Shown piece by piece: positions 52,992 through 55,994 of a stretch of 64,000 bases of DNA; positions within the stretch are counted from its first letter, which is position 1, and every line of letters starts with the position of its first letter. The stretch is from Lingula anatina (taxonomy: Eukaryota; Animalia; Brachiopoda). The translations under genes were made by a program, and so were the position numbers. The stretch is taken from the NCBI GenBank assembly GCA_051362555.1, contig CM120640.1:39844788-39908787 (forward strand), written 5' to 3'. The notes under the pieces were generated by a model. That model made no database searches. It was not told the origin of the DNA and saw nothing but the letters and a program-made list of their open reading frames with translations.

Positions 52992-55900
52992 TCATTTGAT
53001 TCCCTTGGCAGCCAACTCCTCCTTCACGCGGGACAGGTATGTCGGATCAGGATAACCATATCTAAAGGTAAACAATGAAAGTAAACAAAAATTATTTACG
53101 GTCTGAACACAGCGGATTTTATCATTGCAAAATAGATAATTCTTTCTGACAGTATGTGGGGCACGGACAATAACACCCAATCGCAAATGATTTACCTTCC
53201 TGCATTAAGAGAAGAAGTAAAATAAATTCAAAATTATTCACCTCTGAGGGCCTCCGATGGGGCTGGTCTTTTGATGGATGTCGTTCCACACAACCACCCC
53301 CTCTCTCCCCGTGGTCACCGATCTCCCGACTGTGAACAGAAGACGGGCTTCGAATGCCCTCTGCAGCAACCTCAGCACCTCTCGTCCTTCTTTGCTGTCA
53401 GGCAAGTACGCCGTCCTGGAAGTCCCTTGGTACCGTGACCCTGGGTCTGGGTGCTCGGACTGAAAGGAAATAAAATTAATTATATATATATATATATATA
53501 TATATATATATATATATATATATATATATATATATATATATATATATTGGTTAGTGAGCCAAGTTAACCAAGTTAAAAGTCACAGAAAACAAGAGACAGA
53601 AAACAAAGACTACCGTACATTATGGTATCCTAGTGTGGTATTGTAAAATGGTTTTCTGTGGCTTTCAGGTTCGTAAACCAATCAAATTGACAACCGAGCG
53701 TGAAATAATATAGCCAAATACAAAATATCCGCAGCACCACGGTATAAAGCAATAATATTATCTACCTGTTTCGCTTTTCCTGAAAACACTTTGCACTATA
53801 CTGACAGGATGTCTAATTTGATATTTATATTAAGTGCCTTTGGTGAACCCATTCTCGAAGACGATTAAGTAAGTAGACCCCATAAAATACATGCATGTGA
53901 TTCAGAGCTGCATCGACTTTTACCTTTTGCACACCCGAGGGGAAATAATAATCAATGACAATGGTGCCAACCCCCTCGTAACCTTCAAGCGGCCGATGCA
54001 CGTACGATACAGTCATGGTACCGTCATCTGGCTGGTCACCTGTTTGTTCACCAAGAATGTCACCGCATATGGGACATTTGTTCTTGAGTTGTAAAGATCT
54101 TTCTAAACAGTCCTGAAAATTAAACACAAAAATTAATTACATGACCAAGTTTCCTTAAAGTTAATTGTGTAAGATTTTCCCAGCAAAGATTGGTATTTTA
54201 TAATAACATTTAAGAAGAGGTCATCCTCAACTTGGTTCTTCTGTACTAAGTTTTAAGTCATTAGAGAAACAAAGAACGATATTTAATTGTCCACTTTAGA
54301 ATTTGGCCAGTAAAACATACCTTACAGAAACTATGCTTGCAACGGTCAAGAGTCGTCTTGTTCTGAAAAGAATCCATACAGATCGGACATGTTTCATCGG
54401 TGTCATGAAGCGGTTTACGATCTGGATTGGAGACATCAGGCTGCAGCAGGTGCGTGGTGGATGATACATTTTGTGAAAATTCGTGTCTACCACTTGCTTC
54501 ACTACCAATGTTGGTCGCGTGCATTTGATAAGAAAGCCCCACGCTTAAGTCATCTTCGTCGCTATCAGATCCTTCTGCATGCTTTTGATCCCAAAGACCC
54601 ATCTTGTCCCTTTTTTCAAAAGTCATGTCTTGAGGGTTATGCTCAGCATACCTTTTCTTGAAAACTTTTATGAATTCGTGTACAGTTTCTTTTTTAACAT
54701 CTACAATCCTAACGTCTTTGAGCGAGGTCTTCCCTTTCTGTGTCGTTTCCTCAATAGCATATAGCATTGCCTCTGCGCAGTCGTGTGCGTGGATGCCCTT
54801 TCGCCCGCTACCGACCGCTGGCAAAGCAACGCTGCGAGCCCCAACTTCGTCACATTTTTTAAATACTTTTATCAATGTTTTTTCAAGGATAGGAATATGC
54901 CGATGTGTTGAAACTGTGCGCTTTGATGGACCAATGGCATGAAGAACATAACTGCACAGCAACTTTCCTCCGCTTGTTTTGACAACCTTGCCTTCTTCAA
55001 GCCTGCCGTGTTTTAAAAAATTTTTTTGTGATTCTTGGATAAGTTTTGGACCAGCAGCTGTTGCGATAGCCTTCGACACGCCTTCTTTGTGTGTCAAGTC
55101 ACAGTCAGTTGTGTTTACAATAACATCGACTTGCTCTTCAGTAATATCACCGGTGCGTATAGTAAGCTCAACGTCGGGATTCAAAGAAGCGGTGAATATC
55201 TGTGTGGAAAAACTGTGAGTTGGACAAGGCAGAGATGCCATATTTGATTCAGGAAATGGATGATTTTGAACTCCATATATCCTTAGCATGTCTTCAACCT
55301 CCGCTTCGGGCCCAATGATGCACATTTGAGATCGACCGTCTTTCTGAATGGTTTTTGTGAAGACGTTTGGCATATCAGGTAAAGTTACATATTTCACGTC
55401 AACCACCTCGTACTTTAAACCCCCTGAAAAGAAAAGTTTCCGGTAAAAGTCGCTAAATTTTTGGAAGGCTTTTTCTGCAACATCTGGATTCGATGCACCT
55501 GATTCTATCCTCAGTTGATTTCCCTCTAGACACAGCTTTGCGCCGAATCTTGTTTTAATATCTGTTAACTCGTCTTTATGAAAACGTCGAATGTATTCGA
55601 ACAGGATAGGATCCACTGTTACGACGCTACTGCAAGTACCAATAGGCTCATGTTTACTGTAGCCACTACCAGTTGCAGCAGATGGAGTTTCATAAGGAGC
55701 ACTGGCACTTGGAGAGGATGGTAGTTGTTTTTGCTTGTTTGGTTTGTCTGCTAATTGGGAAACAACATTGACATTATGACGAGACCAATTCGGGCCGATG
55801 TGCACGTGTCCCACGTCTCGGTTATTGGAAAAGCTCGCTGGTCTTTTATTCCCTTTATTCTTACTCTGAGGGTCATTGTTCGATGTACGTGTAACTGTCG

Positions 55901-55994
55901 GATCTCTTGCACTGACATGAGTAGCCTTGATGCCCCCAGCAGGTGTAGTATGTGATTTGCCTTTGGAACCACTAGGTTTTCCTGGCCTCAACAT
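52992..55994 (-). CDS. DTX3L: DTX3L-like Deltex E3 ubiquitin ligase with KH-like region, macrodomain, C3HC4 RING and DTC, ~716 aa; exons 55994-54321, 54112-53924, 53459-53242, 53061-52992
   Basis: [12 protein letters not shown]...[37 protein letters not shown]...[37 protein letters not shown]...[38 protein letters not shown]; macrodomain [13 protein letters not shown]...VLHAIGP...VALPAVGSG. The start ATG is inferred as the first Met after the acceptor at 56046; upstream exon(s) appear non-coding. Confidence 0.9.
53481..53546. repeat. (TA)n microsatellite in a DTX3L-like intron
   Basis: Direct read. Confidence 0.95.
54650..55175 (-). other. Macrodomain (ADP-ribose-binding fold) inside the DTX3L-like gene
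   Basis: [47 protein letters not shown]...[22 protein letters not shown]...[13 protein letters not shown]...LKDVRIVD; boundaries approximate. Confidence 0.92.

What the first reader, a model, noticed from the sequence alone, without database searches (positions are those of the whole stretch)
52992..55994. Macrodomain-RING-DTC fusion: a single-chain equivalent of the PARP9/DTX3L heterodimer
Seen: one ORF carries a KH-like segment, a full macrodomain, a C3HC4 RING and a Deltex C-terminal domain. Established: mammalian DTX3L has no macrodomain and obtains macrodomains from its partner PARP9, and Deltex RING-DTC modules attach ubiquitin to ADP-ribose/NAD+ and nucleic-acid ends. Inference: this is a Rosetta-stone fusion, a self-targeting E3 that reads mono-ADP-ribosylated substrates and builds ADPr-Ub hybrid marks without needing PARP9. 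Similar architectures may already exist among database gene models; I cannot assess novelty here.
Basis: partly seen in the sequence, partly recalled or inferred. Interest (0 to 1): 0.85.

Follow-up and report, generated by a model that had tools for sequence, protein, structure and literature searches.

The report
Invertebrate macrodomain-bearing Deltex ubiquitin ligase
This is a spliced, expressed brachiopod gene that joins an ADP-ribose-type macrodomain to a Deltex ubiquitin-ligase module, a layout common in invertebrates and already noted in a 2026 preprint; this copy lacks the residues for erasing ADP-ribose, so it likely only reads that mark and would add ubiquitin nearby.

Summary
The domains are real, but 'one ORF' is wrong: it is a minus-strand gene with four coding exons (716 aa; KH-like, Macro, C3HC4 RING, DTC). 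Macrodomain and half the RING share one exon, and RNA reads cover all exons and show two of three coding splices. RefSeq already models it (Lingula anatina XP_013416245.1, XP_013409531.1). The architecture is not unique: 125 of 296 proteins I retrieved have Macro plus RING-DTC, from sponges to tunicates, none named as vertebrate. A 2026 bioRxiv preprint states that DTX3L lost its macrodomain when PARP9 arose, so this is most likely the pre-PARP9 state, not a PARP9-DTX3L fusion. What I add: the DTC catalytic His/Tyr/Glu are intact; this macrodomain lacks the hydrolase residues that two Lingula paralogues and 81 of 121 relatives keep, yet stays conserved, so it is likely a non-catalytic reader; and the gene sits head-to-head with a PARP14-like gene. 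No binding or activity was shown. New member of a known kind; interest 0.4.

The parts
56316..56580 (-). 5' non-coding exon; its 3' edge (56316) is exact, its 5' end is approximate
   Evidence: joint 56046/56316 CT..AC in 5 reads of X9 and depth in bins 56275-56576
54321..56046 (-). coding exon 1 (ATG at 55994): disordered N-terminus, KH-like region, macrodomain, linker, first part of RING
55266..55631 (-). KH-like region (aa 122-243): one complete type-I KH fold and a second, reduced one
   Evidence: AlphaFold model of twin P0001, pLDDT mostly above 85; Atlas TM 0.69-0.76 to KH regions of DTC proteins; Z 9.3 to MEX-3C KH2; no Pfam hit
54639..55202 (-). macrodomain (aa 265-452): adenine-binding Asp283 and loop-1 Gly305 kept; hydrolase positions changed (Asp297 for Asn, Lys303-Glu304 for Gly-Gly, Arg398-Lys399 for hydrophobic-aromatic)
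54053..54401 (-). C3HC4 RING finger (aa about 532-578), split by intron 1; all eight ligands present
53924..54112 (-). coding exon 2 (end of RING, start of DTC)
53242..53459 (-). coding exon 3 (DTC core with Arg636, Trp679, catalytic His683)
52992..53061 (-). coding exon 4 (Tyr695, catalytic Glu709, stop)
56581..56727 (.). short divergent intergenic stretch between the two 5' ends (edges approximate), with an IRF-element-like 11-mer at 56714-56724
   Evidence: RNA depth bins; motif 2 matches in the window against 1.0 expected, not significant
56728..64000 (+). head-to-head neighbour: multi-exon PARP14-like gene (RRMs, long helical/KH-type middle, reader-class macrodomains); runs off the window; catalytic end not seen
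   Evidence: 13 RNA joints listed; twin P0297 LOC106173081, partial

Best explanation
This is an expressed four-coding-exon gene for a DTX3L-like Deltex E3 ligase that carries its own macrodomain, likely the older invertebrate layout from before PARP9 existed, and its macrodomain is predicted to bind but not hydrolyse ADP-ribose so that it would dock the ligase on ADP-ribosylated targets. Shown: gene structure, expression, domain order, intact RING ligands, intact DTC His683/Tyr695/Glu709, loss of the macrodomain hydrolase residues, wide invertebrate spread. Inferred steps: (1) a PARP14-type transferase, possibly the head-to-head neighbour, writes mono-ADP-ribose on proteins or nucleic acids; (2) the macrodomain holds one ADP-ribose mark and, unlike PARP9 MD1 or its two Lingula paralogues, does not remove it; (3) RING binds E2~ubiquitin and the DTC His-Glu pair activates the ribose 3'-OH as in DTX2/DTX3L, making ADPr-Ub or ubiquitylating nucleic-acid ends or lysines. 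Since DTC and macrodomain both grip the adenosine end, they would act on different marks, which the roughly 70-residue disordered linker would allow. An innate-immune role is inferred from the mammalian system only.
For: Gene and expression. RefSeq twins: P0041 differs at 3 of 493 residues, P0001 is 94% identical. Folds of the P0001 model: Z 29.4 to PARP14 MD1, 28.9 to PARP9 MD1, 22.1 to DTX2 RING-DTC, 22.0 to DTX3L DTC. DTC residues align with DTX3L H707/Y719/E733 at the same spacing, 12 and 26 (roles from PMC11460948 and PMC10810221 passages), and with DTX2 R535 and W578. The macrodomain fails the published hydrolase rule (Asn/Ser and Gly flanking loop 1, hydrophobic plus aromatic in loop 2; PMC10221186) but keeps the GDI aspartate and the glycine matching PARP14 G832; its loop 1 resembles that of the PARP14 MD3 reader. 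It is as conserved as RING-DTC between the window and P0001 (5 of 188 against 5 of 185 changes) and more than the disordered parts (19 of 214; Fisher p 0.010). Spread: 18 of the 120 listed hits, 114 of the best 150, 125 of 296 proteins held; named members are sponge, cnidarian, mollusc, brachiopod, echinoderm, hemichordate, amphioxus and tunicate; Atlas clusters of 74 and 61 members. Preprint statement on macrodomain loss.
Against: No binding or activity was measured. Glu304, Arg398 and Lys399 line the pocket where readers MD2/MD3 have Ala/Ser/Gly and Asn, so binding may be lost as well. The second His of the DTC HHKT motif is Gln here; it is His in 129 of 129 macro-less and 112 of 122 macro-bearing relatives, effect unknown. 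The RING-DTC alone is enough for ADPr-ubiquitylation in DTX3L (PMC10810221), so the macrodomain may add little. Domain arrangement is unresolved (pTM 0.40). The RING-DTC tree has weak deep support and no DTX1/2/3/4 outgroup, and needs 4 gains or losses of the macrodomain, so 'ancestral' rests mainly on distribution and the preprint. Conservation of the macrodomain may reflect fold stability only. The intron-2 joint was not listed, and 5 reads in X7 leave exon 2 for a sequence not in the window.
Confidence: 0.6

Rival explanations
1. The macrodomain is a degenerate that no longer binds ADP-ribose; it serves as a scaffold or protein-interaction module, and ADPr recognition rests on the DTC pocket alone.
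For: Glu304 sits next to the position where a Gly-to-Glu change blocks PARP14 MD1 (PMC10499325; alignment); Arg398-Lys399 replace loop 2; long branch of 1.24 against 0.55-0.68 for its hydrolase-type paralogues; the DTC binds ADPr by itself (PMC7442474).
Against: GDI aspartate, first Asn and Gly305 kept; MD3, a reader per PMC13224862, also has Lys and no aromatic at these loops; the domain is conserved between twins.
Confidence: 0.25
2. Macro-RING-DTC proteins arose many times by domain shuffling within PARP14/DTX3L gene clusters; the layout is recurrent and not one ancestral state that vertebrates lost.
For: One to five macrodomains per protein (76, 32, 13, 3, 1 of 125) of both MD1 and MD2/3 type; a 100/100 amphioxus RING-DTC clade mixes macro-bearing and B-box-bearing members; a coral member has RING-B-box in front.
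Against: Present in every invertebrate group named in my look-ups, sponge included; the Lingula paralogues group together in both the RING-DTC tree (99/95, with two hemichordate rows) and the 45-row macro tree (99/96), so at least this copy comes from whole-gene duplication and not from a fresh capture of the neighbour's macrodomains.
Confidence: 0.3
3. The macrodomain is still a hydrolase, making the protein a combined writer of ADPr-Ub and proof-reading eraser like DTX3L with PARP9 MD1.
For: It groups with hydrolase-type MD1-like domains and is structurally closest to PARP14 and PARP9 MD1, by about 3 Z units over MD2/MD3; most relatives have the motif.
Against: Three of the four positions of the published rule are changed; similar changes predicted loss of activity in PMC10221186 (passages).
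Confidence: 0.08
4. A literal Rosetta-stone fusion of PARP9 and DTX3L, special to this lineage.
For: Domain content equals part of the mammalian heterodimer.
Against: PARP9 is reported only in jawed vertebrates; the layout is pan-invertebrate; no ART-domain remnant.
Confidence: 0.03

Closest known systems
Human DTX3L (RRM, KH1-5, RING, DTC)
   Same: C-terminal C3HC4 RING-DTC, DTC 60-61% identical to PDB 3PG6, H707/Y719/E733 equivalents kept, KH-like folds upstream, head-to-head with a macro-PARP-type gene
   Different: Has a macrodomain; no RRM found and only about two KH-like folds; N-terminal 113 residues predicted disordered; no PARP9 in this lineage per PMC10221186
Macrodomain-bearing non-vertebrate DTX3L orthologues of Picard et al., bioRxiv 10.64898/2026.04.23.720386 (abstract, sections 5 and 14, first part of section 10 and passages read; figures and supplements not visible)
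   Same: Macrodomain in a DTX3L-type ligase before PARP9 arose
   Different: The text I read gives one sentence, no catalytic analysis of the macrodomain, no assay and no invertebrate head-to-head locus; whether Lingula is in its Figure 1d or supplement I could not see
PARP9 MD1 / PARP14 MD1 (ADPr hydrolases)
   Same: Best structural and sequence match (Z 29.4 and 28.9) and the favoured tree placement
   Different: Catalytic Asn, glycine loop and loop-2 aromatic are replaced
PARP14 MD2/MD3, PARP15 macrodomains (non-catalytic readers)
   Same: No hydrolase motif; loop 1 K-x-G-V like MD3
   Different: Placed apart in both trees, though grouping with MD3 was not rejected (AU p 0.126); loop 2 has Arg-Lys where MD2/MD3 have Asn
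DTX1/DTX2/DTX4 (WWE-RING-DTC)
   Same: A dedicated ADP-ribose-reading module in the same chain as RING-DTC (PMC12687431 passage)
   Different: Macrodomain instead of WWE; no WWE hit

Membership tests
Deltex E3 ligases | RING followed directly by a C-terminal DTC domain | tested here: met
Deltex E3 ligases | DTC catalytic His and Glu and adenine-stacking Trp and His/Tyr | tested here: met
   His683, Glu709, Trp679, Tyr695, Arg636
Deltex E3 ligases | Ubiquitylates ADP-ribose/NAD+ or nucleic-acid ends | not testable with these tools
   needs an in vitro assay
DTX3L subfamily | KH-like domains upstream of RING-DTC, no WWE | tested here: met
   predicted structure only; no Pfam KH or WWE hit
DTX3L subfamily | N-terminal RRM (most metazoan orthologues per the preprint) | tested here: not met
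   no RRM hit; residues 1-113 under pLDDT 50; relatives P0098, P0112, P0126, P0154 do have one. Hence 'DTX3L-like', not a canonical DTX3L
DTX3L subfamily | Orthology to vertebrate DTX3L by phylogeny | tested here: inconclusive
   51-row RING-DTC tree, weak deep support, no DTX1-4 outgroup
DTX3L subfamily | Binds PARP9/PARP14 through KH domains | not tested
   the partner region (KH8-WWE-ART) of the neighbour lies beyond the window and is missing from the partial twin P0297
MD1/MacroD-type ADPr hydrolase macrodomains | Asn/Ser and Gly flanking loop 1; hydrophobic plus aromatic in loop 2 | tested here: not met
   Asp297, Arg398, Lys399; only Gly305 fits
ADPr-binding (reader) macrodomains | Macro fold with GDI aspartate and open pocket | tested here: inconclusive
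   fold and Asp283 met; pocket openness with Glu304/Arg398/Lys399 not assessed
ADPr-binding (reader) macrodomains | Measured ADP-ribose binding | not testable with these tools
   needs ITC or pull-down
PARP14 (neighbour gene) | RRM-KH-three macrodomains with hydrolase MD1 first, then WWE and ART | tested here: inconclusive
   RRMs and two full macrodomains present, a third begins at the end of the partial twin; the first two group with MD2/MD3 and lack the hydrolase motif; WWE/ART not seen

The most novel reading that the evidence does not exclude
Invertebrates run an ADP-ribose/ubiquitin module without PARP9 in which macro-Deltex paralogues divide the work: hydrolase-type copies (P0047, P0079) write and proof-read ADPr-Ub, while this hydrolase-dead copy is a pure reader-ligase co-transcribed from a divergent, IRF-type promoter with a PARP14-like writer, a head-to-head writer/ligase unit that parallels the tetrapod PARP9-DTX3L locus in a brachiopod.
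Probability: 0.2. Interest if true: 0.68.

Novelty: new member of a known kind. Interest (0 to 1): 0.4.

Why it matters
The mammalian complex couples ADPr-Ub synthesis (DTX3L) to an ADPr hydrolase (PARP9 MD1), which PMC10810221 calls paradoxical. Invertebrate single-chain versions, with natural hydrolase-type and hydrolase-dead paralogues in one genome, give a compact way to test what the macrodomain does for the ligase and to test the preprint's idea that PARP9 took over a DTX3L macrodomain function. That is useful to the ADP-ribosylation field but extends known biochemistry; the architecture itself is already in databases and mentioned in a preprint.

Tried and rejected
No whole genome is held for this window, so paralogue number and synteny in this assembly were not checked. 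Single-sequence AlphaFold failed (pLDDT 37); the 56-row alignment model was used; both are of twin P0001, not of the window's own protein. The first homologue search with exon 1 found only P0001 as a Macro+DTC protein among 40 hits; searching with RING-DTC was needed. No indexed RNA holder was listed; raw-read runs were laid instead, 6 of 9 listed. Runs X1, X4 and X5 laid only 26, 19 and 13 reads, mostly partial, and say nothing on expression. Gene-model artefact rejected: Macro and RING start share an exon. Capture of the macrodomain from the neighbour is disfavoured, but the AU test did not reject grouping with MD3-type domains (p 0.126), and the 215-row quick tree paired it with a hemichordate domain (support 86) and not with the Lingula paralogues. 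The IRF-like motif is not enriched (27 of 100 shuffles reach 2 matches), was seen before testing, and its consensus is recalled. Atlas feature search of the KH region gave only leads under 0.9. No complex prediction was run, because the neighbour's expected contact region is not available. Literature: nine searches; 'Lingula'+'DTX3L' gave 0 papers; among listed titles and abstracts I saw no biochemical study of an invertebrate macro-Deltex; most subscription papers and the preprint's figures and supplements were not visible. Three look-ups of earlier scan findings returned nothing.

Full report
Observation. The window is animal DNA. Between 52992 and 55994 there is no single ORF; the longest frame is 54261-56120 on the minus strand. 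Pfam finds a macrodomain and the start of a RING in that frame and three pieces of a DTC domain in three later frames. Splicing at GT-AG sites gives four coding exons (55994-54321, 54112-53924, 53459-53242, 53061-52992) and a 716-residue protein. The KH-like region, the macrodomain and five of eight RING ligands are in one exon, so the Macro-RING join is not a gene-prediction error. Raw RNA reads of three runs (X7, X8, X9, about 90-99% alike) cover all exons including the macrodomain, are absent from wholly intronic bins, and show the intron-1 and intron-3 joints and an upstream non-coding exon. No listed joint skips the macrodomain, but depth is low (about 3-17). The intron-2 joint was not listed; it borders a (TA)n repeat where rows are dropped. 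Five reads in X7 continue from exon 2 into a sequence that is not in the window; this is unexplained. Three other runs with the same species label laid almost nothing.

Identity. The gene already has RefSeq models in Lingula anatina: XP_013416245.1 (P0041, 493 aa, 3 differences) and XP_013409531.1 (P0001, 709 aa, 94%). An alignment-based AlphaFold model of P0001 (mean pLDDT 75.5, pTM 0.40) has a disordered N-terminus, a folded KH-like region, the macrodomain, a disordered linker of about 70 residues and RING-DTC. The macrodomain matches PARP14 MD1 (Z 29.4) and PARP9 MD1 (28.9) ahead of MD3 (26.0) and MD2 (24.3); RING-DTC matches DTX2 (22.1) and DTX3L (22.0); residues 113-183 match a KH domain (9.3). 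The Atlas model of residues 112-242 matches KH regions of DTC proteins at TM 0.69-0.76. No RRM or WWE was found.

Distribution. With RING-DTC as query, 17 of the 120 listed hits (of 292 found) carry both Macro and DTC by precomputed Pfam; all 17 were confirmed, and my own profiles add one (18 of 120). None of the hits named as vertebrates has a macrodomain. In the representative library 114 of the best 150 have both (the ranking favours two-domain matches). In all, 125 of 296 proteins held have both. Of 20 looked up, 15 had names, all invertebrate: sponge Oscarella, molluscs, brittle star, hemichordates, amphioxus, Ciona; one search adds Actinia, Porites, Antedon, Gigantopelta and two Lingula paralogues. 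The Atlas holds clusters of 74 and 61 such proteins. They carry one to five macrodomains.

Catalytic sites. DTC: His683, Tyr695 and Glu709 match DTX3L H707, Y719, E733 in alignment and spacing, and Arg636 and Trp679 match DTX2 R535 and W578 (roles from passages of PMC11460948, PMC10810221, PMC7442474). The second His of HHKT is Gln, which is uncommon (7 of 122 macro-bearing, 0 of 129 others). Macrodomain: by the rule in PMC10221186 (passages) it is not a hydrolase: Asp297, Arg398 and Lys399 replace Asn, the hydrophobic and the aromatic residue; the GDI aspartate and Gly305 (PARP14 G832 by alignment) remain. In contrast 83 of 190 macrodomains, and at least one in 81 of 121 relatives (37 of 72 single-macro proteins), meet the rule, among them both Lingula paralogues (the two twins and two proteins with only truncated macrodomains were left out). 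In a 45-row tree this macrodomain is sister to those paralogues (99/96) on a long branch; in the 215-row quick tree it lies in the same broad MD1-like set but beside a hemichordate row; grouping with MD3 is not rejected (p 0.126). The RING-DTC tree also groups the Lingula genes (99/95, with two hemichordate rows). The favoured reading is duplication of a hydrolase-type gene followed by loss of catalysis. The domain is still constrained: 5 of 188 changes between window and P0001, against 19 of 214 in disordered parts (p 0.010) and 5 of 185 in RING-DTC.

Context. A multi-exon gene starts about 150-400 bases away on the plus strand, with 13 RNA joints listed. It has RRMs and macrodomains of reader type; its catalytic end is not available, so PARP14-like is a label for its N-terminal layout only, and it could also be a multi-macro Deltex. 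Human DTX3L and PARP9 are head-to-head on a promoter with IRF and STAT sites. An IRF-like 11-mer lies at 56714-56724, but it is not above chance in the window.

Mechanism. Shown are the gene, its expression, folds and residues. Inferred from DTX2/DTX3L biochemistry: RING holds E2~Ub and the DTC His-Glu pair activates the ADP-ribose 3'-OH. Inferred from motifs: the macrodomain binds but does not cut ADP-ribose and so targets the ligase to products of a PARP14-type writer. As the DTC stacks on the adenine and macrodomains bind it through the GDI aspartate (own knowledge), the two would engage different marks across the flexible linker. Confidence 0.6; the main rival is a macrodomain dead for binding too (0.25).

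Novelty. [quoted passage not shown] PARP9 is reported only in jawed vertebrates and as a partial duplicate of PARP14 (PMC13224862 section 9).

Verdict. Real, expressed, already modelled in RefSeq, and a member of a widespread invertebrate class that has been noted but apparently not assayed. New member of a known kind; interest 0.4. The boldest reading left open, a hydrolase-dead reader-ligase co-regulated with a PARP14-like writer, has probability about 0.2.

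Noticed in passing
window 56728-64000 (+): PARP14-like gene head-to-head with the finding; its first two macrodomains are reader-type, with no hydrolase MD1 in front; end unknown.
   Followed up: partly
window 35761-36639 (-): Large exon of a VCIP135/VCPIP1 OTU deubiquitinase (PF19437 E 1e-83, PF02338).
   Followed up: no
window 53923: Five reads of run X7 leave coding exon 2 for a sequence not found in the window: an alternative exon elsewhere or a paralogue.
   Followed up: partly
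window 56714-56724 and 35638-35648: Two matches to a recalled IRF-element consensus, one in the divergent promoter; 1.0 expected by chance.
   Followed up: partly
window 52500-64000, RNA runs: Runs under one species label differ sharply: X7-X9 lay at mostly 90-99% likeness, X1, X4, X5 hardly at all, which hints at divergent lineages under one name or low expression.
   Followed up: no
Atlas cluster rank 3: A 50-member DTC/RING cluster with Macro on 70% of members, commonest phylum Nematoda (score 0.86, a lead only), although PMC10221186 reports PARP14 absent from nematodes.
   Followed up: no
P0190, P0181, P0235, P0162, P0147, P0087, P0113: Very long Deltex proteins with 3-5 macrodomains of mixed hydrolase and reader type (scallop P0190, 3302 aa), and RING/B-box-fronted Deltex proteins in coral and amphioxus.
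   Followed up: partly
window 52680-52720 and 61824-61890: Short stretches that collect many loose-ended reads, probably dispersed repeats; microsatellites at 52945-53001, 53467-53559 and 58219-58282.
   Followed up: no
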